A DNA stretch of 64,000 bases from Strigamia acuminata (taxonomy: Eukaryota): contig OX442314.1 in NCBI GenBank assembly GCA_949358305.1, forward strand, positions 6,634,001 to 6,698,000, given 5' to 3'. Every line of letters begins with the position of its first letter. The first letter of the stretch is position 1. Of the stretch, positions 845 through 59,068 are shown piece by piece. The notes under the pieces were generated by a model, which saw only the letters and a list, made by a program, of their open reading frames with translations, was not told where the DNA came from and ran no database searches. The position numbers were made by a program, and so were the translations under genes.

Positions 845-2602
845 TGTATGACGGTTTATAAGTGCTATTTATTAATAACACGGCCAAATTTTAAGTGTTT
901 TTTGCGAAACCCGCATTTGTCAATGCTCCGAGTCGCCACTAGATGGCGCGATTATAATTCAGCGGTAAATTCGAATTGCGAGTTAAGAAAACTGGTAAAT
1001 AAATATAAGAATATATTTATTTGTATGAAACGACACTTTATTAGGATTAATATAAATATATATTAATAATTATTGTTCACACTAAGTGATGGGAATCTCT
1101 AGTTCAGCAGAAATGGAGATTTGATAATCCATCGATCAACCGATCGATGTGATTGGTGGATCCATTTCCGGTCCTGGGTATCCAGTTCCGGTTGTGGTGT
1201 GAATTAGCATATTGCTCCTCCGTATCCACTTCCGGCGATACGGGATTGGAGGGATTCGTGGAACCCATGTTCCAATTGGTTGATTGGATTAATCTCTAAT
1301 CCAGTCAGGTTATATAAACCCAAACAACCGGCCATCCGGCAGCTCTGTTTGATTATTTTCTGTTTGGTATTGTTACTTAAGAAATATGATTCGTTGTTCA
1401 CGTAAAAAAACCTTTTGGTTCTTTGTTGATTTATTCACAAAGAACCGTTGCATGATTCTACAGAATCATGCCACCGCCGGCAATTGAAGTCGAAGTGCTG
1501 GGATCATTATGTTGCATAAATGTTACAGTTTACGGTTGCGACGCCGAAGGAGAACCCGCCGTTGTGCAATTCAGTATCCTCCGGACAGGACCATGTGGTC
1601 TTTCTCGGTATGAACGTATTCCGTTACCGCAAGTAGCATCGTTGCTGTTGAGAATTAGTTCCTTCACCGGATGGTGCCAAAGCAGTCTGTTTTACAGTAA
1701 CCACGAGTAGCACCAAGTGTTTGGCAAGCTGATTCTCATGGTATTCGATGCCAAAGTAGTCGGTCTATTATTAGTACCGCGAGAGATTATACTGCTGTGC
1801 GGAGCCGCGAGCTATCGACTCCTGTGTACGTGATACCGTCAATCGCCAGACGAACGACCGTGTCGCGACGCAGGGGACGCTTGATACCGTTCTGCATTGC
1901 AAGGCGTATATTTTCTTTCGACGGCAATTGTGTGTTGCGACGGGAAGCCTAATCTTCATTTTATTTATAACAGCTAAATATTAACTTGGCGACAAGTTGA
2001 TTAACCAAGTCAGAAGACTTAATTACGATCACGATTACATCAAAGACGCAAATGTAACCGATAAGTTGACGACAACTTATCCACAAAATATCTAAATAAG
2101 AATTCACAACGATATGAATTAAATATAATTCATAAGCGGAATATTGATAAGTAAATGAATACATTTACTTACACCAATATCCTCCCAAAGTTGTGGCGGT
2201 GCAGACAAAGTCAACCGCAATGCTCAGATCATTCGATTTATCGACGTGCGATAATTTACACAGCGAACCAAGGAAACCAGCGAAGCCATATCGGACTCCA
2301 GGACACAGCCATCCGGCTTAGATGACATCTGTAAACCAGGTCGAGCGATGGGGAAACCGCTCCCTTATCCCAGACCCGTAGTGATATTATTCTAGGGCCA
2401 GTTGGCTAATTCTTTGTATAGTTTAATAGCTGATTTAACTTGCCAAATGTTGGCATTAGTCTTATGTATAATTTAGCTCACTGCATATTGTTTGCCAACA
2501 ATAAACTGTCTTGTATTTATCTCGTATTGTATTCACTGTTTATTTATTGCGATCTCTTCCCGGTACCATTGTTAAATGGGAGTTGTGGTCGTCACCGTCA
2601 CA
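845..2602 (+). mobile_element. 3' LTR (~1.76 kb) of the gypsy element, inserted in an intron of DEG/ENaC paralog A
   Basis: Starts TGTATGACGG directly after the PPT and ends CCGTCACA. Similar to 2735-4383 and ~19737-21454. The sequence after it matches the paralog B intron at ~25703. Confidence 0.8.
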
Positions 2603-2654
2603 GCTGCTTAATTGTAATACCAAACAAGAAGCATTTTCATCACATGTTCTTTAC

Positions 2655-5416
2655 CTGCATTTTAGATTTTTAAATTTGTTAAGTAAGCAAATCCGACAGC
2701 ATTCTATGTATTCGTTTTCGTTAGAGCATAGACTTGTGACAAATTAGCAATAGATGGCGCCACTAGTACTAGCGGCAAATTCAACCTCGAACTTACTATT
2801 CTCCGCAGAAATAGTTCACAAACATATTATTATGTTTATTACAATAAATGTAATCTAAATCGATAATATAAAGTTATATTATCAATATTCAATAAGATAA
2901 AGCAGGTATTCTTGCTTTATCACGGGTACGCGACATGAAACCCATTTTCAGAATGTATTTCCGTTCTGTGTATCCATTTCCTGTCCCCGGTATCCAGTTC
3001 CGATTTATGCTAAAGATTAACATAATCCAAATTTGCATCTCCGTATCCACTTCCTGCGATACGAGATTGGTGGAACCTAATCCCACCGAGTATAAAACTC
3101 CCTGACAACAGGAAGTTAGTTAGTTCTGTTTTCTGGTTATTTGGTATGTTCCGCATGTCAAATAACCGTTTCTCACTCAGGGCATGGTCCTACCGGACCA
3201 TGCATAGCATGGCTCTGCTGAGCCATGCAACCCCCGCCAACTGAAGGCGAAGTTCGGACTGTTAATGTTTCCGTCAAACGGTCTTGCCGAGGAGAAAGCC
3301 TCCCGCATAAGTATCCTCGTGGTCGGACAATATAATCACGTGTGATACCAAAGTATTTAGTAACCGTCGGTAGCACTGTTACTGCAAGAGATTGACTCCA
3401 TCACCTGATGGTGCCAAAGCAGTCTGCATGCAAAACATGCAGTTACCGCCAGTAGCACTATGTGTTTGGGAATGTTATATCTCTTCGGTGATGGTGCCAA
3501 AGCAGTCTACTTACGAGTAGTATCTCGGGTGATTAATTCTGTTGTGCAGAACTGCGGGCTATATCCCCCTGAGTATCAGTGCCGTCTCTCACCGCACTGT
3601 TATTTAGGGCACGCGCGATACTGTTCTGCTCGGCAAGGCGAACTTTGACGGCAATTGTGTGTTGCGATGTTTAACCTTTATTATATTTTGTAGTTGATAA
3701 ATACACCTTAATTGTTTAAACTTGGCAACAAGTTAACAACCGAAGTAAGTCACGAGACTTATTTCACTGTATGACGAATCAAATTCGTAACAATAAATTG
3801 AATACAATTTATTGAGTTAATTTATTAAACTCACAACATCGCGAATTAAATATAATTCGCAAGCGGAACCTTGGCGAATAAATGACTTCATTTATTCATT
3901 ACCAATTTCCAACCCTAGTTGTGGCGGTGCACATGAGTCAACCGCACCTCTCGAATCGAACCAAACAGCATTACACGGACCATTACACGATACGAACCCG
4001 GAACGCGAAGGAACCAGTTCCACGATTACGAAGCGCCGACGGAAACCGCGAGGACACAGCCAGCCCGGCTACGCGTAGATGACGTCTTTTAACTCGGTCG
4101 AGCGGGCGTTTTGCCGTTCCCGAACTCCGGATCACCAATAACCGTAATGTTATTATTTTAGGGCCATTCGGCCATTTTATTGTATAGTTAAATGTGCTTT
4201 TAACTTGCCAAATGTCGGCATTAGTTTATGTATAACTTTTAGATTTGATTCTATTGTTTGACAACAATAAATGTAGTGTTTTGAGAAACTTGTTGTCTTT
4301 ATTTTATCTCGTATTATTCACTATTTCACGCGACTTATACCCGGTACTATCATGCGATAGGAGTTGTGGTCGTCACCGTCACAAACTGATCGGTGAATTA
4401 AGCAAGATGAACTACAATTGTAAACAAGGTGTTGCCCAGGAATTTTAAGTCTTTAAATTAAACTTTACTTTGTTATAACTAAAATTTATTGTAGATGTTG
4501 AACCAGGATACATCGCTGGTAAAAGATAGGGATTTTTAACATTATTGAATGTCAGGTAAACCTAACGGCAAAGAGGAAAAAATTAATGTAGCAGTTACCA
4601 TTGTAATTTTATTAAGTTACTAGATAATAAGGCATTTTGCATGTCCAGTCGTAATTTTTTTTTAAATTCACTGTCAGTAATTTTCCGGCAAATGATTTGC
4701 TAGAAGCTTCAGCTTTGTCAATGAATAATATTAGTGTAACAATGAAGGTAGTGATAAATGCTCGTTTGTAGTTACCAAATCGAAATGTTGAGCATATTCC
4801 TAATCCACTGTCAGTTTCCGTCTGAACAACAGAAGTATCTGAATATCCCTATGCAAATTGTGATTTTGTGATTTTTAACTGAATATTTCTATTTTTTTTT
4901 AATTTTAATTTTTACTTTCATTTTTACACTGTCGATGTCATCAGTATTGTTAGTTGCTTTCCAAAGTGTATCCATATCGTAAGTTGGGTTTTTAATGCTC
5001 ATTAGTGCTTCGAGCATGTTATCACATGAAATGGATTCTGGTGTTTGTTTATTTGCTATAAGAGTTTCTTCCAAAAGCCTATTCATTTTCTTTGTATCTG
5101 AACTACTGACCATTAAGTCTGGTAAAGTAACTTTTTCTGATCTACTCGTTACGTCGACAGCTGTAGGATAACTGAAGTAATGCATTATTCTGTCGTATGT
5201 CTGATATGTGAGCATGCACATGCAAAATGAGAATAAAAGCAGCCAAAGGATTTGATGTTTGCTCCTCCAACGTTTCCCACTGTTTACAAAATCTTCCAAC
5301 CCAATTATATTGCAGTTGGGTTTGTTGGCATCATCCTTCATTAATTGGTGAATTGTCAAATGCAGTTTTTTTTTCATCAGTCGATTTTTCCTCATCAAAT
5401 AATTATTCTTCATCAT
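2655..5416 (-). pseudogene. DEG/ENaC paralog A: 5' exons only, disrupted by LTR insertions, remainder outside the window
   Basis: Exon 1 has IIGLEDF...ILWLLLFSFCMCMLTYQTYDRIMHYFSYPTAVDV...LPDLMV. Later exons align to B and D. The CYRIC-containing exon is split by a 1.65-kb solo LTR. Confidence 0.8.
2735..4383 (+). mobile_element. Solo LTR (gypsy-type) inserted into a coding exon of paralog A
   Basis: TGTGAC...GTCACA termini with near-perfect 4-bp TSD GACT/AACT. The flanks rejoin to the exon that is intact in paralog B (TAGAGCATGAACTGATCGG). Confidence 0.85.
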
Positions 5417-5739
5417 TTTGGTTCTTTCCAAATGCAAGCTCGCAGCTACCGAATGAGTTAGATAAAAAATGTTTGTGTGCTTGAGCGAACGGCCAAACTG
5501 AAAAACAAAACAACTTGAATTTTTTTATATTTTTTGTTTTTTGATTTTCCAATGTCAGAGATGCTATGTTTGTATGTTTTCTGGAAGTTCTTGGATAGCA
5601 TGAAATAACTAGGTGGACATGTTGGCATGTAGAATATACATAAGTGAATATTTATTACGTAAAAGTACAGGAGGCGCTGCTTGCGACAAGCGTCACATAA
5701 AATGATAAATTGTCAGTACTGATCAATGGACTTCAAACA

Positions 5740-23270: not shown

Positions 23271-26200
23271 TCAACGACCCATCTCACGATCCCGATACCA
23301 ATTATAAGTTTTTAAAATCCAATCGTACAAAGAGAGTAGTGACATTCCCAGACCTAGTCCTACAATGCTACCAAAATCGCTTAAGAATTGAGATATTGGA
23401 TACGCTTGTTTATCTTCTAAAATCTCAACAAAGCTATCAGTAAATCGGAATATTAGTATTGGGACTTTATCTCCTGGCAGTTTATTCTCCCAAAAATTGG
23501 TTTCGTATAAAGTAACTTGGCAAGGTTGTTTACATTTGCATTGTTTTTGATTCGAGTCAAGGTTGCTTAAATACGTGAAATGAGCGGTAGTTACGGCACC
23601 TGTAGTGTTACAAACTGGCCAATTAGGTTTTCCCATGTATGGTAATCTAAAACAAAGAGGAGATTGGTCAAAGATGCAAATGGTTGCAGTTTATCTGCCG
23701 AATTGGGATAGGTGTTTTTTGAACAGATTCAATCTGGTGATGCAGCAAATGAATCTTTAATCGCTGTCATGTCAAAACATGCTTGCAAATTTGTTTGTGG
23801 TTAATGATAGTGCATTGACCCATTGCTAACTTATAACTGGTCGCGGATTAGCACATCAGTCAATGTTTAGAAAAGCAAAAATGAAAATGGATGTGATAAA
23901 ATAATAGCTGCTGTATGAAAAGAAATGAAACATCTGAACTATACCTGCACTTAACACCTCGAAATAGATTGTTCTGCCAGCAAGCACTTTTACAGTTGAG
24001 GTAAGCACTTTTGTTCTCTTCACATGGATCGCGCTTTGTATTTCTTCGTATGATCTATTTCGCAAAAGGAATCTTAGTATGAGCATTTATATAATTAATT
24101 TCATTTTCTACCTGAAACTCTCGAAGTACTACTTCGTTGACACACGCATAGTTTACGGTCAACGGTGCCAAAATGTTAACTTCCTCTTCCCGATTATTTA
24201 TGATTAGCTGCGTGTTATTATAATCCAAAATATTTATATTAATAATTACTACTGTATGTGCACAAAATTTATTTTTTCTATTTTTCTATTCACAATTAGG
24301 AATACATGTGTATCCAAACCAAACACGAACCATTTTAACATCTTTTTTCAACTTTTTATGCTACTTTGTGCATGAATAAATAGACTTTCTCGTTATCTCA
24401 TTTAAGATTGATGCTTAAAAAAACACCGAGACTGTAAATTTATCGCATTATATTTTGGTTGTAAAATTTCAGGTGATTTCGAGTGAAAATATTTTTGTAC
24501 ACACCTTTAGCTGCGTATCACAAGCTTCTGAAGGAGTTAGATATCTACTAAACGTAATGAAAAGCTTAGTGATTTTGGTGCTTGTTTTATCTGTAAGACA
24601 GCGAAAAGGTCATAATTAATTTTCCAACTCGTCTGCAAGAAAGCAATTTTTAAAGTTAAATAATTCTGTGAAAAAAAGAAAAATTGAAAAATCTCAAAAT
24701 TCAAAAGCAAACTTTTTGAATACAGCCATTAATTAACTAAAATCACAAATTAATGTTGTATATTACCTTTTCTTATTTGTGAACAATTACCAAATGGAAG
24801 TGAAATAAGATTAGTTGATATTACCTGTAAACATAAAACTTTTATTGTTTGGTTTTTGTTTGAGGAATATGACTTATTATAGTTACATCATTCACAATAT
24901 GGTCGATAGCCACCGTTTCATCGATATTAAGCGATTCCCAGATGTTTTGCAATGACAAATTGCGGTTGAACAATTGCCAGGGTGATATGTTGCCACAGGT
25001 TTTATTGGGTTGTTTAAGTAAGTGTAATCGAGCTTTGCGAATTTCTTCATTACTTTTTTCACCACAAACTGTGACAAAAGGAAATTCGGTGTAGCGTCGT
25101 TGACTTATTCGAACGATTGTTGTGCCCGGTTCATTGAGGTAGTAATTGACACGAATGTGCAAGCAATACAAAGTAAATCCTGCAACAACTAATACGAATA
25201 TTAACTTCAACTTTTTTAAGACTGTATATATTTTGGTTTGCTCCTGAGTTTCATCAACTTTTTTTTTGCACATTTCATACAGACGCCTAATCTTATTGAC
25301 GGATCTTTTTTGGTGAATGTTTGATGCAACATAATATAAATACCAAATGATGTCAGGTAATGAGATTACGGATAGTCCGATAAACAAGCCCAGATTGCCT
25401 CCTAAATCTGATAATAAGGCAATAACATCATATGAGTACCGTTCTTCATAAACAGTGACTTTCTCATTAGTTATTGCTAATGATAAACTCATTGTTTTAT
25501 TATTTTTAGGTATGCCTAAATCAGTATGTGGTGTAAAAGTTATATGTTGACAAGGATGTTCACATCCGCAATCAGCAATTGGTTCTGCAAATATAACGAA
25601 GTCCTTAACATCATGATACGTCTGATTTGTATCATCTGCAAATTTGCAAAGTGGCAAATCTAGCTTCATGAACGGAAATCTTGTATAGAATATATTTAAT
25701 TAGCTGATTAATTGTGATACCAAACAAGAAGCATTTTCACCACATGTTCTTACCTGCATGTTAGCTTTTTAAATTCGTTAAGTAAGCAATTCCGATAGCA
25801 TTCTCTGTATTCGTCTTCGTTAGAGCATGAACTGATCGGTGAATTTTGCAATATGAACTACAAATGAAAACATTAAAAAGTGTTGCCCAGGAATTTCAAG
25901 TATTTAGGTAAAACCTTACTTTGTTATAACTAAAATTTATTTTTAATGTCGAACCAGGATACATCCGTGATAAAATAAAGTGATTTCCAACGTTACTGAA
26001 TGTCAGGTAAATCTTAGGGCAAAGAAGAAAGAATTAATGTAGCAATTGCTATTGTAATTTAATTAAATTACCCAATAATCAGGGTTATTGCATATCAAGT
26101 CGTAATTTTTTTGATAATTCACTTGCAGTAATTTTCCGACAAATAATTTGCTAGAAGCTTTAGCTATATCAATGCATAATATTGGTGTAACAATAAAGGT

Positions 26201-26871
26201 TGTGATAAATGCTCGTTTGTAGTTACCAAATCGAAATGTTGAGCATATTCCTAATCCACTGTCAGTTTCCGTCTGAACAACAGAAGTATTTGAATATCCC
26301 TATGCAAATATAGTTTAAATTGTGATTTTTAACTGAATTTCTCTATTGTTTTTTTTTTAATTTAAATTTTTACTTTCATTTTTAGACTGTCGATGTCATC
26401 AGTATTGTTAGTTGCTTTCCAAAGTGTATCCATATCGTAAGTTGGATTTTTAATGATCATTAGTGCTTCGAGCATGTCATCGCATGAAATGGATTCTGAT
26501 GTTTGTTTATTTGCTATAAGAGTTTCTTCCCAAAGCCTATTAATTTTCTTTGTATCTGAACTACAGACCATTAAGTCGGGTAAAGTAACATTTTCTGATC
26601 TACTCATTACGTCGACAGCTGTAGGATAACTGAAGTAACACGTTATTCTGTCGTATATCTGATATGTGAGCATGCACATGCAAAATGTGAATAAAAGCAG
26701 CCAAAGGATGTGATGTTTGCTCCTCCAACGATTCCTACTGTTTACGAAATCATCCAGACCTATTAAACTGCAGTTCGGTTTACTGGCATCATCTTTCATC
26801 ATTAGTTGAATTGCAGAACGTAGTTTGCTTAATCTTAGCATATTTCTTCTCAACAAGTGATTACCCTGCAT
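23271..26871 (-). CDS. Tandem two-domain DEG/ENaC (ASIC/pickpocket-like) channel, paralog B, 11 exons, about 792 aa
   Basis: Exons 26871-26374, 26299-26227, 26163-26072, 26012-25920, 25857-25754, 25679-24887, 24824-24767, 24590-24505, 24207-24112, 24054-23945, 23646-23271. All introns are GT-AG with compatible phases and no stops. Motifs: YFSYPT, LPDLMVC, Cys-rich thumb, LLSDLGGNLGLFIGLS, then a second TM1/FPFVTVC, second thumb and FLSDFGSIVGLGLGMS. Confidence 0.88.
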
Positions 26872-31302: not shown

Positions 31303-31838
31303 AGTGCCTGCTCTCTAATTCTTGTTGAGTGTCGCACCCCTCGCTGTTGCAAATTCGCCTCTATTCCGTCTACGCGAGCTTGGTTGTTTGCTGCCAGAAC
31401 TTCCTTGGTGGTGCCTGGCCTCCGTCCTCCCCTCCGAGCAGGCAACTGTTCCGGTACTAGAGCCACAATAGATGGGTCCGGTTCGTCCATGTCTACATCT
31501 AAATCTATCGGTTCTTCGGATTCATCCGTCCGGTCAAGGTAAGTATCTCCCAGTCGTGACTCTTCAAAAACTACATCACACGATTCTGTGATTTTCCCTG
31601 TGTCTCGCATAAATACTCTATAAGCTTTAAGTTTAGTCGAGTAACCCACTAGTATGCCTTCTCTGGTTTTGTTTTTCAACTTGTTTTGTTGAAATTTTGG
31701 CTCTAACACGTGAGCCACGCATCCAAAGCGTCTTAAGTACTGTAGCTGACGTTGGGTATTCTCCCCTTCCAACGTTCGTAAGGCGTCTTGCCGTGTGTAC
31801 TCGTTTTGCATCTGTTGCGTAAATGAGCAGCTGTCAAT

Positions 31839-32246
31839 AAGGCTTTTTACTTACCGTTGGGTGGCGCCACTACGCGCATGCGCGTAGCGCAAATGAGGGG
31901 CAAAAACCAAAACAAGACAATAGAAACAGATCAAAATTCTATTTATTAATTTATTTTTTCAACATTTAAAAAAAAAATTTTTCCAGTTACTTCGGAAAAC
32001 CCATGTTGCATTCATTTTAATTTCAAATTTAATTTTTTTTTTTTTTGATTTTTTTTTTTTTTTTTAATAATTGAAATTAACATCGGTTTTCCGAAGTAAC
32101 TGGAAAATTTTTTTTTAAAATGTTGAAAAAATAAATTAATAAACAGATTTTTAGTCGTGTTGCTGTGGTGTTGTTGTGGTTTTTGCCCTACATTCGCGCT
32201 ACGCGCATGCGCTTGGAGCGCCGCCCAACGATAAATAAAAAGCCTT
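31839..32246. mobile_element. Near-palindromic MITE inserted in the copia integrase
   Basis: AAGGCTTTTTA...TAAAAAGCCTT with long imperfect TIRs. Removing it plus one AT restores the reading FWGEAILTAAHLRNR. Confidence 0.85.
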
Positions 32247-35200
32247 ATATGGCTTCGCCCCAGAACTTCTGTGGCAACTTCGAGTCCACTAATAAAGTTC
32301 GCATCGCTTCTGTCACAGTTCTATTCATTCGTTCTGCAACCGCGTTGCTTTCAGGTGAGTATGAGGTGGTCAATTCGTGTAGAATCCCTTTCTGAGTGAA
32401 GTATTGTCCCAAACTGTCGTTCAAAAACTCCCCGCCATTGTCCGACCGTATGCGTTTCACGAGTCGTCCCATCTGCAGTTCAATATGCGTCAAGAAGTCT
32501 TTAATCGCGGTCCCAGCCTCACTTTTAGTACTCAATACCCTCAAAAATACCATTCTGCTACAGTCATCAACCATAGTCAGTACATAACGTGCTCCCCCTA
32601 ATGTGGGTACGGGCATCGGCCCCATCAAATCAACATGAATCAACTCCATTATTTCTTGGGATTGTTGATATATAACGGCACGTCGTGGAACCCTTGTCAT
32701 TTTTCCTTTCGCGCATTCCAGACAAGTCTCATCTGGCAAATTGTCATCCCACTTCAAGCCTTTTACTAAATTTTGGCTTTTCATGTCTTCCAGATTTTTG
32801 AAATTTGGATGCCCCAATCTTTGATGCCATAAAGTTCGTGTCGCGCATTGTGTCACGCACGCTTCCTCGTTATCACGCTGCATATGAGCGTTTTCGTCGC
32901 TGAGTGTCCCAACCATGTCAAACATGAACTTGTCGTCCACACGTTGTGCCCTCATCACGTGATTCCCATCTTTATCTTGCACGTTGGCGCACTGCCACGT
33001 AAATGTCACAGTCAACCCTGCATCGACCATCTTGGGAACAGATAGTAAATTTGTCTGTAGTGTCGGGATATATAGAACATTGTTCAAACGTAACGTGTTC
33101 CCCGAAACATCTTCCGTGACGCGCATTTGCCCCCGTCCTGGTGACTTCGCTTCCGCCTTACCACTTGCCAAACCGACATCTTGTGGATATTGTTCAAAAG
33201 ATTCAAAATCTTCCTTGTGTGAAACCATATGGCTTGTTGCCCCTGAATCCAAAAGCTAACTTTCACATTCATCCTTCGTCGCCTCCTCGTTCCACCGCTC
33301 AACATCTCGACTAATTGGCAAAACTATTGCCCCACACGAGTATTCTCGTGGTTTGGTTGTCGGTCGTACTTCGCTTCGTGCTGAAGACTCAGCTGTTCTA
33401 TTTCCGCCGCGTCCTTTGTTCGGTGTTCTCGTATTTGTCCCAATTCCGCGTGAATGCGCGCTTCCCCTCGTTGCATCATTCGTTTTACTCTTGGACCAGC
33501 AGTCCCGGGCGTAATGCCCAATCTTGTGGCAATTATAACATTCTACATTGCATTTCCCCTTTGGTCGTTCCCATTTCCATCGTGACTTTTTTTCTTTACA
33601 CGCTGTCTTTCCTCTTTAAATCTCAATGCGGTTCGAGCTTCACCCAAAGCCAGGTCATTGCTTTGTCCCTCAAAAATTCGCACATTGTGCTCAAACTCAA
33701 CTCGCAGTCCTCGTGCTACGTAACTTAGCATTTCCTGATTGCTAAATATTTTCCCAAGTTCCGCTGCTTTGGTCTTTATTGCCTCCGCACGATTGATGTA
33801 AGTTTCAACCGTTTCTTTTTCGTTCATCTTCACCTGCGCTAATTCTATGCCGCATTTGACCACTTCAAAATCATTTTTCGGTTCCTTGTGAGTCTCAATC
33901 GTTTCCCACAGCTTTTTGGCGTTCGTTTCCATACTGTATCGCACTCCTTGCTCTCCTGAAAGTGACAGCATCAAGATCCCCATGGCCTCGTCATTTTTTC
34001 GCTCTCAATCCTCCCAAATGGCCCGCATCTGGCCGTAATTCGACTGTCCTAGTCGTTCTTTCTCCGGTTCGTCATTCACGATCACTGTCTTCCATAAGCC
34101 TTTCATCTTTAATACTGCACGCAATCTCATCTTCCACAGGAAATAATTCCTGTCGGTCAGTCTCTCAACCGTCGTTGATGAAGAAGAGACGTTCACGAAC
34201 GATTCCGCCGTCGCCATCTCGTGTCGAAATTCCGTAGCAGACGACAGAAATAAACGGGAATTAATTTCACGGCAAATATTTTCAAAAACTTAGTGACACT
34301 ATAAACTTGCGGTTTTCTGGCCCGTTTTTTTGCTTCAGCAGGTCAATTTGGCTTCAGTAATCAAACCATCCATCTGCTACCACTTGTTGGTTTATACGCA
34401 AATAAACAGACGTTTGAAAAGCAATAAAACGAACATGTCGGCATTTATTCCAACTCTAACGACAACACATTGTAAACTACAACACTGGTTGCACTACATT
34501 CTTGTGCAATCAGTTCTCGGCAATAATACATTAATCAATAAACTCAACACTCTAATTGCTTTGTGGTAAAAACACATCCACAAAAACATGTGTTTTAATA
34601 CATTTATAAGTACGATTTATAAACTTTTAGGGAATTAAATGGGGAACACAAAAGATCACACTGGTGCTGATAGACCAGGAACCATTCCAATAACTTTTAA
34701 AATAATGACTCTTTCTAGTGCATGTCAAACTAACAATTCGTGTTCATTAAATACTAGTACATACAGTATAGACCTTTTTTAAATTTGTGATGCAACAGAT
34801 TTAAAATATTTTATGTGAATAATTTTATTGAAGTAATATTTTATGACCAGGAAAGATCAAACACTTCACATGTGCAAATGATTTTAAGACGAGTTCCATA
34901 AAGATAAATAACTTTAAAATCATTTTTATAATAAATGAAGTAAACTCTATGACAAATGTAACTTTTAAAAACCAATGTCCATTTTATATCTTAAACATAT
35001 GGTAGCCAACCTATTTCCTTTTAAATTTAGCACTAACGTAACATGTGACGTATATGGATAGCTTTTATGTAGCCATATTTTATTGCTTCTTTTGGAAGCA
35101 AATCGACACGATCTTAATCTTATACCAATTATAACTGTTTAAAATACAAATGTAGAGAGACAGTAATGACATTCCCAAACCCAATCCTACAATACTACCG

Positions 35201-37090
35201 ACATCGCTTAACAATTGAGACATTGGATAAGCTTCTTGCTCTTCAATACTCTCCAACAATGTATCAGGGAATTCAATATCTATCATTGTCAAATTACTAC
35301 CTAAAAATTTAATTCCATGGCAAAAATATTTGTAAAAACTATTTTCACATGGTAGTTTACATTTGCATTGTTTCTGATTTGAATCAAAATTCTTTTTAGA
35401 TACATGAAATGAGCGAAAGTAGATTCCTTTGTTGTGTTACAAACTGGCAGATTCGGTCTCCAGAAATAAGGCAATCTGAAACAAACAGTAGAAGCTTAAA
35501 ATTTACATACAACCATGCACATTATTTATTTGCTGAATAAGATAAATGTGTTCATACTGTGTATGTTCTGTATGTTACATACACAATGCAATTAGAATTG
35601 AGATGTGAAAAAAGTGAAATATTTAAACTGACACACCTGCAGGTAATATTTTGAACTAAATTGTTTCTCATGCAAGCTTTTTTACACTTGAAATAAGCAC
35701 TTTTGTCCTTTTCACATGGATTGCGCTTTGTATTTCTTCGAATAGTCTATTTCATAAAAACAAGGTTGTTAAGTGTAAGCATTTATATAATTAGTTTAAT
35801 TTTCTACCTTAAATTCTTTAAGTGTTACCATGTTCAACCAATGATAGTTTACAGCTAACGGTGCCAGAATATTAACTTCTTCTTCCAGATTATTTGGGAA
35901 AAACTAAACACAGTTATAATTCAAAAGTAGGTGAATATGTATGTACAGACTTATCCATAAATCACAAAATGTACAGGTTTGGGCAATAATACAGTAAACC
36001 AAAAGTTTGAATAAAATTTATCTTTATCAACAAAAAATCTCACAGATTGTGTTCACAAATCCGAAGTAAACGTGAGATGATCAATTCACCAAGAAAATAA
36101 ATTGCAAGGCCGCTTGACATGCAAAGACTAATATGACCCCTTCCCCCCCCCCCCAACTTTTTGGCAACTTTTTGGGTGTGAAAAAAGGTTTAAGCTGATT
36201 TGGTACACAAGCTTTGATTGCACTTGCACAGAAATTTTCTGGCAAGCAGAAAGTTATACTTTCTACAGCAGTGACGGTGGACGGAAAAATTCTATTCTTT
36301 CTGGAATAGCAAAATTTATTTCCTATTCATTTTTAATTGCTGGAAATTTTTTTGGGTTGATGTTCGAATGGCGAATGACCCAATAGCGAAAATGTGCAGA
36401 TTTGTCATTCAAGATGAATTTTATTGTTTCCAATGATAAAATTTGACATTTTTGCCATTGACCATTGCATTTGAACATGATGTACGATTATTGCTGTCAT
36501 TAAACATTCTTTCTAATTCATTTAATATGTATAATATTTTATGAAATAAGTAATCAATGCAAAAGTTTACAGAGGGGCTTAGTAGTTACTACGCCGCAAC
36601 GTAGAACTGTAGTCTGTCCAAAAAGTTTACAATGTTCTCCTTTTTTAAAAATGTCACAAATTAGTTTAGCACTGCGTTTTAGTGATTTTGTATTCTGATA
36701 AAACTATTCACACCATTTAATAGTGTGAAGTTTGAGCTTCCTTGAAAAGTAATTTACAGCGTAGTACCAAAATATTTTTATTTATTTACCTTTCTTTTAG
36801 CATTGTTAGGCCTAATATTTGGCTTAATACTGCTAAATAACAACTGGAATTAGAAAATTGTCTGCGCAGAATGGGATGCGCAGTACGAATTTAGTATCAA
36901 GATGCCGGGCGCAACCTGTGGTTAAATTAAGGTTTGCCAACATTTGGAGTTGCACCAGTCGCTATTTCCGTTGCTGGTGCTGGTTTACATTTCCGCCAAA
37001 GAGGAGTGTTCTCTTAGGACGTAGTTCTACGTCAAAAGAGTTTTTATTTAATAACAAATGGTGTTGTAGTACAGTACGGTACCTTTAGAT

Positions 37091-37346
37091 CAGGGGTCGG
37101 CAAGTAATTTTAAGTGGGGTCCGGAAAAATTGAAAATTTTTATCGAGGTCCAGAAAAAGACAACAAAATAAAACAAAAAGAACACAAAAAACATCAAAAA
37201 CACCCAAAAAAAACCAAAAAAACCAAAAAAACACCAAAAAACACCAAAAATACCAAAAAAATATATAATAAAAAATATCTGGCGGTCCAAGTTTCGACCT
37301 TCCGCGGTCCGGATCCGGACCGCGGGCCGCCAGTTGCCGACCGCTG
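37091..37346. mobile_element. hAT-type MITE
   Basis: TIR CAGGGGTCGGCAA...TTGCCGACCGCTG and perfect 8-bp TSD CTTTAGAT. Confidence 0.88.
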
Positions 37347-37562
37347 CTTTAGATGTTGGTCACATAGTTTCGAAGGAAATAGATTATGAAATGTAATAAA
37401 AAGATAAGAGTTTGGGTCTTTTGATTGTTCTGAAAAACATTGGAAAGGTGTGAATAAATTTTCAGATGCATCTGCTAGAAATGATTTTTACTAGATAAAT
37501 TATTCCAATCAAAAAATTAAATTATCACAAAAAAGTGAGTTCTGTGAGAATAACCAAATATT

Positions 37563-37956
37563 AGGTGCATTCAAGTTAAAATTCAAATTTGACTTATCAA
37601 TAATTCATGTAAGTCATTTGACTTAACTCCAGTGGGCGTGTCATCAACATTCTTAATACGTCCAAGTGCCTCCTAGTGACGTATTGGTGGCCGTAATACA
37701 TAATATCCAACACACATGAATAATTAGGCCACTGGAATAAGTTATTCAAGAGGATGCCCCCAGTCAGTCAACCATGAAAAGAGGAACCCAGTAAGAAACT
37801 GGTCGAGGAATGAAGAATTGAATTTGCTCATTACCTATCTGAACAGCCAAAGGCATGATTAGTAATTGCTGACATTTTAAGCACAAATTCATGTTTGAAT
37901 TATTAATAATTCAGATTATTATAAGTCAAATTTGGATTTTAACTTTGAATGCACCG
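37563..37956. mobile_element. MITE, short member of the AGGTGCATTC-TIR family
   Basis: GGTGCATTCAA...TTGAATGCACC termini, similar to 50324-52084. Confidence 0.7.
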
Positions 37957-40900
37957 ATTGTTAAAGTGTGAAATAATAGAAATTAAATTGCTAATTTACT
38001 TATGTTTATCCGTGAACAATTGCCAAAAGGAAGTAGAAGAGGATGCTTTGATATGTTTAGCTCTGTTTTATATCCATACAATTTCTACAAAAATAATGAT
38101 TTTCAATGCCATTTGTTTTTAGGTAATATAAAATACTAGAATACCTCATTCTCAATATCAATGGTGTCATGGACACTGAGTGTTTTCCAAATATCTTCCA
38201 GTGACAATTTGTTGTTGAACAATTGCCAGGGCGATATTTCATTGCAAGTTTTGTTGGTCTGTTTCAGTAAGTGTGATCTGGCTTCGTCCATGGCATCATT
38301 TTGATTTTCACCACAGATCGTGACTGACTGATATTCGATGTAGCAGCGTTGATCTATTCTAACCATTGTTGTTATCAGTTCATCAATGTAGTAGTTGATG
38401 CGAATACGCAACCAATATAAAGTGAATCCCGCAGTCACAAATACTAGCGCAAACTTAAACCTTTTTAAGACTTCATTTGTTATGGTTTGCTCTTTACTTG
38501 CAATGACTTTCTTCTTGCATATCTCGTACAGAGGACGAATCTTATCGACGGATGTATTTCGGTGAATGTTTGTTGCAACATAATATAAATACCCAGTGAG
38601 TTCAGGTAACGAAATTAACGCTAGGCCAAAAAACAGGCCAAGATTGCCACCTAAATCCGACAGAAGAGCAATTGCGTCGTACGTGTATCGTTCTTCATAC
38701 ACGCTAATTTTGTCATTAGAAATTGCTAGAGATACAGATACAGTGTTTTTATCATCTGCTGTGCCTATTTCAGTGAAAGATGTAAAGGTTATTTGATGAC
38801 ATGGACGTCGACAGAGACACACAGTAATGGGATTTGTGGTCTCAATCAACTGCTTTGCAGCACCGTAATGCATGTATATGTCCTTCGAACATTTGCAAAG
38901 TGGTAAATCGATCTTCATGAAAGGAAATCTTTAATAGAAGATTTGTAATCATTATTTTTTTATGTAGAACTACATCTTTCTCTGCACTAAGCGGGCTGCA
39001 ACAATTGGACAGGAATGACACGGGAATGGAAATGCAATTTTTTTTATTTCTTACCTGCATGGTAGCTGCTTAAATTTCTTCAATAGACATCTCCGATAGC
39101 ATTCTCTGTATTCCTCTTGACTAGAGCATTCATTTATTGGTGAATTCAGAAAAATGAACTAAAATGTTTGAGTAAAATAAGGTGATTCGTAGGAATTTTC
39201 GGTCTTTGATAAAATTTTACTTTGTTATAACTCAAATAAACTTTTGTTGTTCCACCGGGATATTGTATTCCCACCCCGAAAATTTTTCCAAAATTGTAGA
39301 AACGAAAACCAACCTAAGGGCAAAGGAAAAAAAAGTAGACAACAACTATTTTTGCAATGTATTAAAATTACACCGTATTTCGATGCAGGGCATGTGTCAT
39401 CATAACTTGTTTCTATTTTAACTGTTACGACTTGTCCAACAAAAGATTCGCTAGATGCCTTAGCTATATATCAATAAATAATAAAGTGCATTGAAGTTGA
39501 TAGTGGTAAATGTTTGCTTATACATACGAAATTGAATTGATGAGCATAGTCCATGATAATTGATCATTTCTGTCAGAACAAATGTTTTGTTTGAATTAGA
39601 ATATCCCTATGCAAAATAAAGAGATTTAAATAATTTTTTTTAACTCATTAAAAGTTATTGATTCCATCTTTTTACTTTTATTTTTACGCTCACAACTTCT
39701 TTCGTCAAATTACTCGCTTCCCAAAGTTCCTCTAGATTGTAAGTTGGGATTGCCATTAGTGCGTTTAACTTGTTACTGCAGGCGGAACGTGAAGGTTTGG
39801 ATTTTGATTAAGTTTTATTCCAAAATCTCGACATTTCTTTTGTATTGCTACTACATATCAACAAAATCGATAGGACGACCTCTTCTGATCTACTCGTTAC
39901 ATCAACAGTCGTAGGATAACTTAAGTAATGCATTACCCTATCGTAAGTCTGATAAGTAAGCATGCATGTGCAAAATGAGAATAAAAGTAGCCAAAAGGTG
40001 TGACGCCTTGTCCAATGTTTTCTACTGTTTATGAAATCATCCAAACCAACTAAGCTGCATCGAAGTTTATTTGCATCATCCTTCAACAATCGATGAATTG
40101 CTGGACGTAGTCACCTCACCAAATTATTATTTTGCATTATATATTATTTAAATCAAAGGTTTTTTCTATAATGACAATTGATGATTATGAACAATTTAAT
40201 TATTGAAAGGAATAAGTGTAGATGTTATGATCTTTTTATCTGCTTTTGGTGGTGTGAAAAGGTACATACCTGCTTGTTATTCGACGTCTCTCAGTGCTGT
40301 GAGTTCAAAATTGACTGTAAATTCTCTTTTCTCATAGATCTTCTATTGATTTGTATAATTCTAATTAAAGTGCCTTTGGTGAGTGAATGAAAACTTAATT
40401 AGATTTTTGAAATGCATTTAATTATTTATAGTAAATGTTATGTTCAGAAAATTCGATAATACACTGCAGTCCACCTTGACACGAATTCTGTATCTTGGAC
40501 AGCCAGCCCATTTCTAGCATGCATAAGCTAATGGGAGTTAAAGAAAAATAAATTATTAATTTTAATTACCTACATGATCAATTTTAAAAATTAAAACTAC
40601 CTCCTCTATCTAGAACCGCCTATTTCTGGCACGGACAAGCTACAGTAATTATACGAAAAAGAAAATGGAGTTTTTAATAAATATACAATCAATTTTTGAA
40701 GTAAAACTTCTTTGGCGCAACAGAGACTCAAAATAGGAAATGACAATAAGTGACGGAAATGATGTAACAGTAAGGGGAAAAGCGAAGCACAATACAAGCA
40801 GTGAAGGGAGAGGAGCAAACCACAGACCAATACAAGATAATTGACTAACACAAAACACAAAACATGTGTTAATTTGTAATAAGTGGAGATGTTTTATGTC

Positions 40901-48145: not shown

Positions 48146-51100
48146 ATGGAGAATAATAGTTTGATGTGGAGATACAGAAGAGGGAAAAGTCAACTGCGTC
48201 TGACAATTCACCAATTAATGAAGGATGATGCCAACAAACCCAACTGCGATATAATTGGATTGGAAGATTTCGTAAACAGTAGGAAACGTTGGAGGAGCAA
48301 ACATCACATCCTTTGGCTGCTTTTATTCACATTTTGCACGTGCATGCTCACATATCAGACATACGACAGAATAATGCATTACTTCAGTTATCCTACGGCT
48401 GTTGATGTAACGAGTAGATCAGAAAATATTACTTTACCAGACTTAATGGTCTATAGTACAGACACAAAGAAAATGAATAGGCTTTGGGAAGAAACTCATA
48501 TAGCAAATAAAAAAATATCAAAATCCATTTCATGTGCTATCATGCTTAAAAAACTAATGACAATTGAAAACCCAACTTACGATATGGATACACTTTGGAA
48601 AGCAACTAACAATACTGATGACATCGACAGTGTAAAAATGAAAGTAAAAATTAAAATTAAAAAACAAACAATAGAGAAATTCAGTTAAAAATCACAATTT
48701 AAACTATATTTGCATAGGGATATTCAAATACTTCTGTTGTTCAGACGGAAACTGACAGTGAATTAGGAATATGCTCAACATTTCGATTTGGTAACTACAA
48801 ACAAGCATTAATCATTTCCTTCATTGTTACAATAATATTATTCATTGACATAGCTGAAGCTTCTAGCAAATCATTTGTCGGAAAATTACTGACAGTGAAT
48901 TTAAAAAAAAATTACGACTGGACATGCAAAGTGCCTTATTATTGGGTAACTTAATTAAATTACAATAGCAATTGCTACATTAATTTTTTCCTCTTTGCCC
49001 TTAGTTTTACCTGATATTCAATAATGTTGGAAATAACTATTTTGTATCAGTGATGTATCCTGGTTCAACATCTAAAATAAATTTAAGTTGTAACAAAGTA
49101 AAGTTTTACGTAAAAACTTGAAATTCCTGAGCAACACTTGTTAATGTTTACAATTGTAGTTTATATTGCAAAATTCACCGATCAATTCATGCTCTAACGA
49201 AGACGAATACAGAGAATGCTATCGGAATTGCTTACTTAACAAATTTAAAAAGGAAAAATGCAGGTAAGAACATGTGGAAAAAATGCTTCACAATTAAACA
49301 GCTAATTAAATATATTCTGTACAAGATTTCCGTTCATGAAGTTGGATTTGCCACTTTGCAAATTAGGAAATGATGCAGATAACATGTATCACATTGTTAG
49401 GCACTTAATTAAACATACAGAACCAATTACCCATTGCCAATGTCGACGTCCTTGTCAACATTTAACTTTTACACCATATACTGATTTAGGCATAGCTAAA
49501 AATAATAAAACGATGAGTTTAACATTAGCAATAACTAATGAGAAGGTTACTGTTTATGAAGAACGGTACACATATGATGTTATTGCCTTACTATCCGATT
49601 TAGGAGGAAATCTGGGCCTGTTTCTTGGACTATCCGTAATCTCATTACCGCACATCATTTGGTATTTATATTATGTTGCATCAAACATTCGCCGAAAAAG
49701 ATCCGTCAATAAGATTAGGCGTCTGTATGAAATGTGCAAAAACAAAGTCGATGAAACTGAAGAGCAAACCAAAATACATACAGTCTTAGAAAAGTTGAAG
49801 TTAATATTCGTATTAGTTGTTGCAGGATTCACTTTGTATTGCCTGCACATTCGTGTCAATTACTACGTCGATGAACCGGGCACAACAATCGTTCGAATAA
49901 GCCAACGACGCTACACCGAATTTCCTTCTGTCACAATTTGTAGTGAAAAAAGAAATGAAGAAATGCGCACAGCTCGATTGGACTTACTGAAACAACCCAA
50001 TAAAACCTGTGGCAACATATCACCCTGGCAATTGTTCAACAGCAAATTGTCGTTGCAAAACATCTGGAAATCGCTTAGTATCGCCCAAGTTTTACATGTT
50101 GGCTGTGTTGAGAAAAAGGATGTAACTATAATAAGTGATATTCCTCAAATAAAAACCAAACAATTAAAGCTTTATGTTTACAGGTACCATCAATTAATTT
50201 TATTTCACTTCCATTTGGCAATTGTTCACAAATAAGAAATGGTTATATATAAAATTAATTTCTGATTTTAGTTAATTAATGGTTCTATTCAAAGTCTACT
50301 TTTGAATTCTAGGATTTTTCAATAGGTGCATTCAAAGTCAAATGAATTATTTGACTGAAATGACTGAAATGACTGATTTGACTGATTTGACTTAACAGTC
50401 ACAGGAAATGATGCAATTTACATCATCAGATGATAATCGAAATTTGAAAATTCATAATCTGCTTATTTTCATGATTTTTTACAAGCTTTTCAAGACTTTT
50501 CACTCAGTTTTCGATGATTTTTGACGATTTTTGACGATTTTTACACAGTTTTTGACGATTTTTACCGAGGCTTTCACAATTTTTACCCAGTTTGTCACGA
50601 TTTTTACCCTTTTCACCCAGTTTTTCATGATTTTTACCCTTTTCACCCAGTTTTTCATGATTTTTCACAATTTTTACTTTGTTTTTCACATTACATAATT
50701 TTTACCCAGTTTTTCATGATTTTACACGATTTTTACCGGTTTTTCATTATTTTACACGATTTTTACCCAATTTTTCACGATTTTACATGATTTTTATCGT
50801 TTTTCACGATTTTACACGATATTTACCGAGTTTTTCACAATTTTTACCTTGTTTTTCACGATTTTTTACAATTTTCACCCAGTTTTTCATGATTTTTCAC
50901 AATTTTTACCCTGTTTTTCACTGCCCAGTGGAAATGCTCAAAACATAAATTACATGCAAACGAGGTTCAATATTTGCAAGGTTAGTAGCGCTCTTATAAT
51001 TAGGTTAGTAAAATGCTAACACAACACTAAGCTAGTTTACAATAATATTCAATGAATAAATTCAAAAAAAATTTCAAAAAAAAATTCAAAAATTCAAATA

Positions 51101-53863
51101 AATCAAGAAAATCTTCAAAAATGATGTTTTCAAGAAGTTGAAAGGTTTGTGAAGTCATCTGGTGCACTTCACGTGCTTTTCCTTGAAAATCTGGTCCAAA
51201 ATATCCATAATTCTACTGGTTGAAATATCCGAAACAATCCACACACTTCACGTGTATTTTTCTGGTCAAAATGTCCGAAATTCGCAATTTTCGCTGGTCT
51301 ATGGTGTCCAAATCGATTCCCACACTTCACGTGTGTTTTCCTCTCGAAATTTGGGTCCAAAAAACGTCCAAAAACATGCAAAACGTTCAAAAATGCCTCG
51401 CACGAGTCCAAATGGTACAAATCGTCGTCTGGGCGCATTCTGTGCTGCACGGCACGTCCTTCGCGAACGTTTCGGCGACGTTCCTCGTTGTTCGCGAACG
51501 TCCGTGCGACGTTCCTCGTTGTCCGCGAACGTCCGTGCGACGTTCCTCGTCGATTAGCGGTCAACGCCGCGAACGTGTCGGAAATGTGCGGCCCTGGCAA
51601 TCGTACGATCGGCGTGCGCTCGAAAACATAAATTTGTGTTTAAAAATGTCAGCAATTACTAACCTTGCTTTTGCCTAAGTATGGCTGTTCAGCTAGGTAA
51701 TGAGCACTGCTCATTTCTTGAGTCCTTGACCAGTTTCTTGCTGGATTCCTCTTTTCATGATAGACTGACTGGGGGCATCCATCTTGAATGGCTTATTCCA
51801 GTGGCCAAATAATTCATGTGCTCAGCCATGATTGGAGGAATTTTTCCATCAGCCACTTATTGATAAGTCATGATTGGAGTGACTTATCAATAGGCCACTT
51901 ATTGCAATTGAATTATCTTTTCAGTGATGTAAATTACATCATTTCCTGTGACTGGTAAGATATTTCAGTCACATCAGCCAAATAATTGTTCACTTTGTAT
52001 GGAATTTAGCCAAATGACTTATATGAATTATTGATAATTCAGATTATGATAAGTCAAATTTGGATTTTAACTTTGAATGCACCTATTGTCTTTTTTTTTC
52101 TGGAATTATTTAACTGTAAAAATTGCTTACTGCAGACGAATTAGAAAATTAATTCTGACCTTCTCACTTTCTTCCAGATAAAACAAGCACAAAAACCACT
52201 AGACTTGACATTATTTTCACTATAGGTCCAACTCCTGCAGAAGCTTGTGATCCGCAGATAAAGGTGTGTAAAAAAAATATTTTCACTCGAAATCACATGT
52301 AATTTTGCAACCAAAATGGAATGTTATAAATTGACAGTCTCAATGTCTTTTTAAGCAGCATTCTTAAATAAGATAACGAGAAAGTCTATTTATTCATGCA
52401 GAATGAAGCAAAAAAGTTCTTTAGATAATCCAAATCTAAAAGAAGTTAGAAAAATGGTTTGTGTTTGGTTCAGACACACATGTATTCCTAATTGTAAATA
52501 GAAAAAATAGAAAAATAGTTTTTGTGCACATAACTTACAGTTTTAATTATAAATATAAATATTTTGGATTATATTAACACGCAGCTAATCATAAATAATC
52601 GGGAAGAGGAAGTTAACATTTTGGCACCCTTGACCGTAAACCATCCATGTTACTACTTTGTAGTACTTCGAGAGTTTCAGGTAGAAAATGAAATAAATTA
52701 TAGAAATGCTCCTACTAAGATTTCTTTTGCGAAATAGATCATACGAAGAAATACAAAGCTTGATCCGTGTGAAGAGAACAAAAGTGCTTATCTCAAGTGT
52801 AAAAGAGCTTGCTGGCATAACAATGTACTTCGAGGTGTTAAGTGCAGGTATACTTCACATTTCTATTCATGCATCAGCTCCAATTTTATCACATCTATTT
52901 TTATTTTTCGCCGTTCTAAAGATTGACTGATTAGCCAATCCGCAGTCAGTAATTGCACTAGCATTAAACACACACAAACTTGCAAGCATGTTTTGACATG
53001 ACAGCGATTAAAGATTCATTTGCTGCATCACCAGATTGAATCTATTCGAAAAACACCTAACCCTTTTCAGCAGATAAACTGCAACCAGTTGTGACCGTCT
53101 GGCCACCGTGGCTACCTACGGTGATGCGTGTCACTCCACACACTGCTCTCTGGTCCCTGGCCACCCCTCTTGCGAGGTATACTGGCCTAGTGGGAAAGAA
53201 AGGAGCTGAGTGGTGGAGAGAAGAGACTGTGAGTCAGAGAGAGAGAGAGTTTGGACAGCACAGGATGAGGAAGTGTGCTCTTGAGGTCTCTCAGCCAGCC
53301 TGGGCAGTGCAGTGCCCCAGTTGACTCTGCTCGTCTCCATTATTACGTGAAGGTCCGGTCCCACCCACGGCGATCAATCCCCAGATTGCTGTGAGAGCGA
53401 AGACCCGTCACAGCTAGTCTTCAGTTATGTCAATTCTAGAAGAAGCATCTTTGACCAATCTCCTCTTTGTTTCAGATTACCATACATGGGAAAACCTAAT
53501 TTGCCAGTTTGTAACACTACAAGTGTCGTAACTACTGCTCATTTCACGCATTTAAGCAACCTTGACTCGAATCAAAAACAATGCAAATGTAAACAACCTT
53601 GCAAACATATTTTTTACAAAAGTACTTTTCGGAAGAGTCCTTACCTAAATGATGGAGTTACAGTTCTATTGTTGCAATTTGCTGATAGCTCTGTAGAGAT
53701 TGTAGAAGAGAAACAAGCATATCCAATATCTCAATTCTTAAGCGATTTCGGTAGCATTGTAGGACTGGGTTTGGGAATGTCACTTCTCTCTTTGTACGAT
53801 TGGATTTTAAAAACTCTTAATTGGTATCGGAATCAAGATGTGGGTTGTAGATTTGCACTCTAA
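48146..53863 (+). CDS. Tandem two-domain DEG/ENaC (ASIC/pickpocket-like) channel, paralog D, 11 exons, about 797 aa
   Basis: Exons 48146-48643, 48718-48790, 48854-48945, 49005-49097, 49160-49263, 49326-50121, 50184-50241, 52178-52263, 52585-52680, 52738-52847, 53476-53863. GT-AG introns, compatible phases and no stops. Two TM1-ECD-TM2 units. Confidence 0.88.
50324..52084. mobile_element. Non-autonomous DNA transposon in an intron of paralog D
   Basis: TIR AGGTGCATTCAAAGT...ACTTTGAATGCACCT flanked by AT on each side. Absent from the equivalent intron of paralog B. Confidence 0.8.
53090..53412. mobile_element. Truncated solo LTR (small family) in the last intron of paralog D
   Basis: TGTGACC...GTCACA, absent from the equivalent intron of paralog B. 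Confidence 0.7.
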
Positions 53864-58868: not shown

Positions 58869-59068
58869 NNNNNNNNNNNNNNNNNNNNNNNNNNNNNNNN
58901 NNNNNNNNNNNNNNNNNNNNNNNNNNNNNNNNNNNNNNNNNNNNNNNNNNNNNNNNNNNNNNNNNNNNNNNNNNNNNNNNNNNNNNNNNNNNNNNNNNNN
59001 NNNNNNNNNNNNNNNNNNNNNNNNNNNNNNNNNNNNNNNNNNNNNNNNNNNNNNNNNNNNNNNNNNNN
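58869..59068. other. Assembly gap (200 N)
   Basis: Run of N. Both flanks carry TCGAGACCAATTAAA. Confidence 0.99.

What the first reader, a model, noticed from the sequence alone, without database searches (positions are those of the whole stretch)
48146..53863. Natural concatemer: two DEG/ENaC subunits fused in one ~800-aa, four-TM polypeptide (paralog D)
Seen in sequence: within one exon (49326-50121) the first TM2/selectivity-filter motif (ERYTYDVIALLSDLGGNLGLFLGLS) runs without stop or intron through a ~40-aa basic linker into a second TM1 and post-TM1 motif (LKLIFVLVVAGFTLYCLHIRVNYYVDEP...FPSVTIC). A second Cys-rich ectodomain and TM2 (FLSDFGSIVGLGLGMS) follow. Established: DEG/ENaC/ASIC subunits have two TM helices and assemble as trimers. 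Inference: a covalent dimer cannot fill three-fold symmetry alone. It would need a 2+1 assembly with a monomeric partner, linked double trimers, or a half left outside the pore. I do not know of a characterised natural family with this design, but I cannot search to confirm novelty.
Basis: partly seen in the sequence, partly recalled or inferred. Interest (0 to 1): 0.92.

Follow-up and report, generated by a model that had tools for sequence, protein, structure and literature searches.

The report
Centipede channel with two fused subunits
This gene, likely from a soil centipede, carries two different DEG/ENaC ion-channel subunits in one reading frame, as do many centipede gene models; because these channels need three subunits, the predicted double protein would likely need a third, separate subunit to complete its pore.

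Summary
Confirmed, and larger than one gene. Gene D (48146-53863) models as 11 GT-AG exons, 797 codons, no internal stop. Exon 6 runs from TM2 of one DEG/ENaC module through a 39-residue linker into TM1 of a second. The halves repeat the same five intron phases but are only about 20-35% identical. Against intact paralogue B, both TM2 regions are constrained (pN/pS 0.14, 0.20) while both ectodomains change fast (1.46, 1.12). The junction recurs in 24 Strigamia maritima gene models among 152 proteins examined. In a model of one complete relative, the second half alone matches centipede BRTNaC1 over 321 residues (Z 19.8). Second halves mostly replace a gate glycine (Gly in 1 of 9, against 20 of 20 first halves). 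Separate three-module chains appear in S. maritima models and in shrimp. Ten paper searches found no natural tandem DEG/ENaC. No RNA or functional evidence was available. Best reading: a fused heteromeric pair completed by a third, single subunit (about 0.45), likely a sensory channel family.

The parts
48146..48643 (+). D exon 1: N-terminus, pre-TM1 loop (48245-48277; Ile-Gly where the family has His-Gly), TM1a (48308-48373), start of ectodomain A
48718..49263 (+). D exons 2-5 (48718-48790, 48854-48945, 49005-49097, 49160-49263): ectodomain A; end phases of exons 1-5 are 0,1,0,0,2
49326..50121 (+). D exon 6, the junction exon: Cys-rich end of ectodomain A, TM2a (49579-49680), 39-aa linker (49681-49797), TM1b (49798-49872), post-TM1 motif, start of ectodomain B
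50184..52847 (+). D exons 7-10 (50184-50241, 52178-52263, 52585-52680, 52738-52847): ectodomain B; end phases of exons 6-10 are again 0,1,0,0,2. Intron 7 is swollen by repeats to 1936 bp (176 bp in B)
53476..53863 (+). D exon 11: Cys-rich end of ectodomain B, TM2b (53723-53827; Ser at the lower-gate Gly, GxS kept), short tail, stop; AATAAA 9 and 65 bases after the stop
23271..26871 (-). Paralogue B: intact two-module gene, 11 exons, 792 codons, same intron positions
35083..40137 (-). Paralogue C: two-module gene, now broken (two stops in exon 1, frameshift in exon 11, insertion at the exon 8 donor); junction exon still open
2600..5460 (-). Paralogue A: exons 1-5 only, exon 5 split by an insertion; no junction exon in the window

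Best explanation
Gene D encodes, in one predicted 797-residue, four-helix chain, two long-diverged DEG/ENaC subunits (A then B) that likely sit side by side as two of the three walls of one cation pore, the third likely coming from a separate single-module subunit. Shown: the open junction exon, two ASC modules, repeated intron phases, constraint on both TM2 helices, a family of such genes, and different gate residues in A and B. Inferred: two neighbouring six-exon genes fused when the last exon of one ran into the first coding exon of the next. The cytoplasmic linker replaces A's tail and B's N-terminal loop and fixes the A-B order. The pore is then asymmetric (Gly from A, Ser or Asn from B at the lower gate). 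The fast-changing ectodomains likely tune each paralogue to a stimulus, so one gene delivers a matched receptor pair to a shared partner subunit. A sensory role rests on family behaviour and on the nearest solved relatives being antennal channels.
For: Junction inside one exon, with no GT[AG]AG donor consensus in it. Phases 0,1,0,0,2 in both halves, chance about 0.004-0.009. Matched exon pairs of the halves are 20%, 32% and 35% identical for the three that align above chance (z 3.1, 5.1, 12.8). D vs B pN/pS: pre-TM2/TM2a 0.14, TM2b 0.20, ectodomains 1.46 and 1.12; Fisher p 0.0002 and 0.012 for TM2 against ectodomain. 27 of 152 proteins have a TM2-to-TM1 junction; 24 are S. maritima, 19 of them of this A-B type, with module gaps of 38-67 residues. 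P0009, P0012 and P0022 hold both modules whole. AlphaFold2 model of P0009: pLDDT 69, pTM 0.63, four long helices; second half matches BRTNaC1 8ymr at Z 19.8, rmsd 4.4, 321 residues. Gate Gly (PDPNaC1 G375 = cASIC1 G436 per PMC12714832) is Gly in 20 of 20 A halves, 1 of 9 B halves and 32 of 33 single-module rows; the gate Asp is kept in 8 of 9 and the GxS Gly in 9 of 9 B halves. A single-module S. maritima model exists (P0024, T1IGW0). An engineered ASIC1a dimer gave currents in oocytes (PMC4529235 passages).
Against: No partner subunit is identified: the window holds no single-module gene, and P0024 is only a candidate. The selection figures come from one pair of paralogues with few changes in TM2 (3N/8S and 4N/6S), and ratios above 1 were not formally tested. 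The linker's sequence is not constrained (pN/pS 0.78 D-B, 1.51 D-C), only its length. The gate tally counts related sequences, not independent events. Recalled and untested: ENaC alpha also has Ser at that position and can conduct alone, so Ser does not forbid B-rich pores. One ancient fusion is favoured by a quick tree (A with A 87, B with B 90 and 81), but an AU test did not reject a separate origin for the window's subfamily (p 0.18). S. maritima proteins are automatic gene models and several are visibly wrong (P0001 has a doubled N-terminus). Two of the four window copies are broken, and D's exon 7 donor is weaker than B's.
Confidence: 0.45

Rival explanations
1. A-B chains assemble with each other only. 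Two chains give an A-B-A pore with one B left over, or three chains give two linked pores (AAB plus ABB), or chains cross-link trimers into clusters.
For: An engineered ASIC1a dimer is functional without added monomer, though the authors saw shorter products. The 39-residue linker is low-confidence in the model (residues 397-422) and could reach a neighbouring trimer. No partner gene lies in the cluster.
Against: It wastes a module or needs a B-rich pore with two Ser/Asn at a gate that is Gly in 32 of 33 single-module rows. No natural precedent was found.
Confidence: 0.3
2. Three chains make an A3 pore, and the B halves stand outside as tethered accessory or ligand-catching modules.
For: A keeps the canonical gate residues and a pre-TM1 Gly loop. 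B lacks that loop and deviates at three TM2 positions.
Against: TM2b is as constrained as TM2a (0.20 against 0.14) and keeps the gate Asp and the GxS Gly, as expected of a pore helix. The B fold is complete.
Confidence: 0.12
3. The gene yields separate A and B subunits, by linker cleavage, early polyadenylation or an internal start, so the fusion only ensures co-expression.
For: D's linker has a basic run. In-frame ATGs and three polyA-like hexamers occur in exon 6. Engineered ASIC concatemers gave shorter bands.
Against: The basic run differs in B, C and the S. maritima models and is predicted to be cytoplasmic. There is no stop after TM2a in D, B, C or the 19 S. maritima A-B models. The hexamers lie in coding ectodomain sequence, none between TM2a and TM1b.
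Confidence: 0.08
4. Artefact of assembly or gene prediction: two neighbouring genes merged.
For: Merged neighbours do occur in databases (Helobdella P0048, gap 184).
Against: The junction is intron-free in the window DNA, open in three paralogues, bridged in short-read contigs of other copies, and shared with another species.
Confidence: 0.03

Closest known systems
BRTNaC1 (PDB 8ymr) and PDPNaC1 (PDB 9jf7), Scolopendra antennal DEG/ENaCs
   Same: Best PDB matches by sequence (E 1.2e-16 and 5.1e-14) and by fold. Compact ectodomain. PDPNaC1 also lacks a canonical HG motif.
   Different: Single-module proteins of 431 and 421 residues with two TM helices; PDPNaC1 is described as a homotrimer. About 18-21% identical in the structural alignments, so heat or proton gating cannot be transferred.
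ENaC alpha-beta-gamma and other heterotrimeric DEG/ENaCs
   Same: Trimeric pore built from unlike subunits (PMC10148893 passages), the pattern proposed here.
   Different: The subunits are separate genes and chains; here two are predicted to be one chain.
Engineered ASIC1a concatemers (PMC4529235)
   Same: Head-to-tail linked subunits; dimer, trimer and tetramer constructs gave currents.
   Different: Artificial, identical repeats that keep their full tails. Here the linker is 39 residues and the halves are unlike.
Two-repeat channels such as TPC and K2P (recalled, not searched)
   Same: Tandem repeats of a pore-forming unit in one chain.
   Different: There 2 x 2 fills a four-fold pore exactly; two modules cannot fill three-fold symmetry. 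Unrelated fold.
Unnamed UniProt models of Strigamia maritima (T1JD34, T1ITL7, T1JEH2 and others)
   Same: Same A-linker-B design; T1JEH2 is 51% identical over 96% of the junction exon.
   Different: Listed only as 'Uncharacterized protein'; many are partial or mis-spliced.

Membership tests
DEG/ENaC (Pfam ASC PF00858) | ASC domain above Pfam's cut-off | tested here: met
   38.9, 71.6 and 55.2 bits against 23.6 for exon 1, junction ORF and last exon
DEG/ENaC (Pfam ASC PF00858) | Each module: TM1, Cys-rich ectodomain, TM2 | tested here: met
   Profiles find N and C modules twice each in D, B and C; cysteines per exon
DEG/ENaC (Pfam ASC PF00858) | ASIC/ENaC fold | tested here: met
   On relative P0009, not on D itself: Foldseek E 2.3e-17 to 8ymr; second half Z 19.8, rmsd 4.4, 321 residues. 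The first half was barely tested by VIA-align; the Atlas model aligns residues 40-400 to an ASC cluster at TM 0.70 by the target
DEG/ENaC (Pfam ASC PF00858) | TM2 gate Asp, Gly-Gly and GxS tract | tested here: met
   TM2a has all; TM2b keeps Asp and GxS but has Ser for the second Gly
DEG/ENaC (Pfam ASC PF00858) | Pre-TM1 His-Gly motif (not universal: PDPNaC1 lacks it) | tested here: not met
   A has Ile-Gly at the aligned place; D's linker has no Gly
Canonical DEG/ENaC subunit | Two TM helices per polypeptide | tested here: not met
   Four predicted; filed as a variant made of two family modules
Canonical DEG/ENaC subunit | Trimeric assembly | not testable with these tools
   Needs subunit counting or a structure
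Canonical DEG/ENaC subunit | Non-voltage-gated cation current, amiloride block | not testable with these tools
   Needs electrophysiology
BRTNaC1/PDPNaC1 orthologue | Forms a clade with them | tested here: inconclusive
   Unresolved in both quick trees

The most novel reading that the evidence does not exclude
Arthropods have built concatenated DEG/ENaC channels several times. Strigamia-type centipedes have a large, fast-evolving two-module receptor family that completes its trimer in a way unknown for this family: a shared third subunit, or paired pores made of three chains. A separate S. maritima clade and a shrimp clade encode the whole trimer in one chain. DEG/ENaCs thus have their own two- and three-repeat forms, like the multi-repeat voltage-gated channels.
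Probability: 0.65. Interest if true: 0.9.

Novelty: new variant of a known kind. Interest (0 to 1): 0.82.

Why it matters
The DEG/ENaC review read here describes subunits of two TM helices that form trimers. A conserved, expanded two-module chain cannot fill that symmetry alone, so it must use an assembly rule not yet described for the family. It also gives natural constructs in which subunit order is fixed by the gene, making the position-specific roles of gate residues in asymmetric pores directly testable. The family is a candidate sensory repertoire in a lineage that lacks odorant receptors and opsins (PMC4244043 passages). That paper lists 'sodium transport' among lineage-specific duplicates but never names ENaCs in its main text.

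Tried and rejected
No whole genome is held, so the family could not be counted in this species. No RNA holder was listed; this is no evidence on expression. Single-sequence AlphaFold2 of P0001 was useless (pLDDT 32). The complex prediction of two A modules plus one B module of P0009 gave no verdict (median 0.30, mark 0.34, alignment not used). The spliced D protein was not folded or searched whole; exons and the relative P0009 stood in. ESM Atlas gave only single-length ASC clusters; small clusters are not searched. Earlier findings of this scan: none by words or sequence. A third module up- or downstream of D was rejected within the window. Summed contig depth over TM2a is roughly a hundred times that of single contigs, but the tool says this is no copy number, so it was not used. 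The careful tree did not finish. AU tests neither rejected a single B clade (p 0.47) nor the opposite grouping (p 0.18); the two shrimp rows were left out of these tests. P0027 (gap 0) was set aside as a likely mis-splice and P0048 as likely merged neighbours. Only the best 150 of 956 hits were listed, so other tandem forms may lie among the rest. The literature search covers open-access papers only. In PMC4244043, supplement files 13-56 were not searched and five scans were unreadable; supplements of the other papers were not opened and could list such proteins. PMC8438182 reports 46 of 578 insect PPKs with three to five predicted TM helices, without calling them fusions in the passages read.
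Full report
What is in the sequence. The frame 49306-50232(+) runs from a Cys-rich ectodomain end through a TM2 motif, a linker and a second TM1 with its post-TM1 motif, without a stop. Pfam ASC matches exon 1, this ORF (two stretches) and the last exon, each above the curated cut-off. Checked by coordinates, gene D has 11 exons, GT..AG at all 10 introns, 797 codons and no internal stop. TM2a is aa 372-405, the linker 406-444, TM1b 445-469 and TM2b 752-786. The model is predicted from DNA and paralogue comparison.

The cluster. The window holds four copies. B is intact with the same 11 exons. C has two stops in exon 1, a frameshift in exon 11 and an insertion at the exon 8 donor. A has only exons 1-5 and is split by an insertion. 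Profiles find 7 N modules and 6 C modules, all inside these four genes. Two live and two dead copies among transposons look like birth-and-death evolution (inference).

Origin of the fusion. Exons 1-5 and 6-10 end in the same phases, 0,1,0,0,2, with similar lengths (73/58, 92/86, 93/96, 104/110); chance is under 0.01. This is what a fusion of two six-exon genes would leave, with exon 6 as the last exon of one plus the first coding exon of the next (inference). The halves are old relatives: three of six exon pairs align above chance in D, at 20%, 32% and 35% identity.

Both halves look functional. Between D and B, pN/pS is 0.14 around TM2a, 0.20 around TM2b, 1.46 and 1.12 in the ectodomains and 0.78 in the linker. 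TM2 differs from ectodomain at p 0.0002 and 0.012. This is one pair with few changes. D's short introns are 84-97% identical to B's while the proteins are 75-77% identical, which fits fast ectodomain change, as in receptor families (inference).

A family, not a fluke. The junction exon found S. maritima T1JEH2 (51% over 96%) and, through it, three more models, all with the junction. A profile search of 1.84 billion representatives gave 956 hits and listed 150. Of 152 proteins then in hand, 27 have a TM2-to-TM1 junction. Look-ups name 24 as S. maritima, one as Helobdella, one in a Penaeus vannamei cluster, and leave one unnamed. Nineteen S. maritima models are of the A-B type, three of them with both modules whole. 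That the window is a geophilomorph-like centipede is inferred from these nearest relatives. Contigs in two DNA-like runs of one study bridge the junction in diverged copies, with no indel rows listed.

Structure. With 24 aligned rows, AlphaFold2 gave P0009 (T1JD34, 791 aa) pLDDT 69 and pTM 0.63, with long helices at 38-72, 359-411, 419-453 and 755-790 and a low-confidence linker. Its best matches are the centipede channels BRTNaC1 and PDPNaC1; the second half alone aligns over 321 residues at Z 19.8. D itself was not modelled.

The halves differ at the gate. PDPNaC1's gates are Asp372 and Gly375, equal to cASIC1 Asp433 and Gly436 (PMC12714832 passages). The Gly375 position is Gly in 20 of 20 A halves and 32 of 33 single-module rows, but in 1 of 9 B halves (6 Ser, 2 Asn). 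B keeps the Asp (8 of 9) and the GxS Gly (9 of 9). A keeps a pre-TM1 Gly loop that aligns with single-module P0024; D's linker has none. A quick tree of the TM1 side groups A with A and B with B, but AU tests settle neither one origin nor several.

How it likely works. Constraint on both TM2 helices suggests that both line a pore. The fixed A/B difference suggests a fused heteromeric pair. The simplest completion is one single-module subunit shared by many tandem paralogues (0.45). Assembly from tandem chains alone, with a spare half or two linked pores, is the main rival (0.30); an engineered ASIC1a dimer did give currents (PMC4529235 passages). B outside the pore (0.12), separate products (0.08) and artefact (0.03) follow. 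The stimulus is unknown; the two characterised centipede relatives are antennal heat and proton sensors.

Three-module forms. A separate S. maritima clade (support 100) has modules m1, m2 and m3, 51-61% identical to one another. T1IZL2 holds m1, m2 and the start of m3; T1IU28 the end of m1, m2 and m3; T1IL99 the end of m2 and most of m3. No single model holds all three whole, and their exon structure was not seen. In shrimp, P0116 (1001 aa; five Logan contigs of 3.4-4.0 kb and XP_069977668.1) and two related clusters (81%, 67%) carry three TM2 modules with a shrunken middle ectodomain. The middle TM1 shows as a hydrophobic peak but was not found by the N profile. Unbroken ORFs on such contigs look like transcripts (inference).

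Literature. Ten searches listed no natural tandem DEG/ENaC. I read passages only of PMC5203786, PMC8438182, PMC9974506, PMC12714832, PMC4529235, PMC9822975, PMC7067487, PMC10148893 and PMC11152070. Of PMC4244043 I saw passages, section 9 and part of the supplements. The family review has no occurrence of 'fusion', 'tandem' or 'concatem'. Subscription papers and most supplements were not searched.

Verdict. The feature is real, conserved and apparently undescribed: a new architecture within a known family, with an open and testable assembly problem. Expression and function are unproven. Interest 0.82.

Noticed in passing
P0116 / P0153 (XP_069977668.1, Penaeus vannamei), P0158, P0159: About 1000-aa shrimp proteins with three DEG/ENaC TM2 modules and a reduced middle ectodomain, on Logan contigs of 3.2-4.2 kb: a likely independent single-chain trimer.
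   Followed up: partly
P0007, P0010, P0014, P0013 (S. maritima T1IU28, T1IZL2, T1IL99, T1ITG7): A second concatemer clade with up to three canonical-gate modules in fixed order; overlapping gene models imply a three-module chain.
   Followed up: partly
P0032 (unnamed ENA record): A 241-aa fragment with the same junction; its B side groups with the Strigamia B halves.
   Followed up: partly
P0015, P0021 (S. maritima T1JF12, T1IT41): Longer linkers (66-67) that keep a Gly-containing pre-TM1 loop before the second module, perhaps closer to the ancestral junction.
   Followed up: no
window 37346-37083 (-): About 260-bp insertion with an 8-bp target duplication exactly at C's exon 8 donor; looks like a hAT-type miniature element (label recalled).
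   Followed up: partly
window 50242-52177 and 53085-53445: Repeat insertions in D's introns 7 and 10, absent from B and skipped in contigs of other copies.
   Followed up: partly
window 29494-34584, 41944-44535, 60078-63998 (-): Long ORFs that read like copia-type retrotransposons (label recalled, not scanned); the first two have 99.5% and 100% identical flanking direct repeats of about 200 bp, so recent insertions.
   Followed up: no
window 1606-2602, 2970-4383, 20064-21454: Related copies of one element, one of which splits exon 5 of paralogue A.
   Followed up: no
window 49323-49325, 25682-25680, 38931-38929: The junction exon uses an AAG acceptor in D, B and C; S. maritima model P0001 mis-splices here.
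   Followed up: no
window 58869-59068: Assembly gap of 200 N.
   Followed up: no
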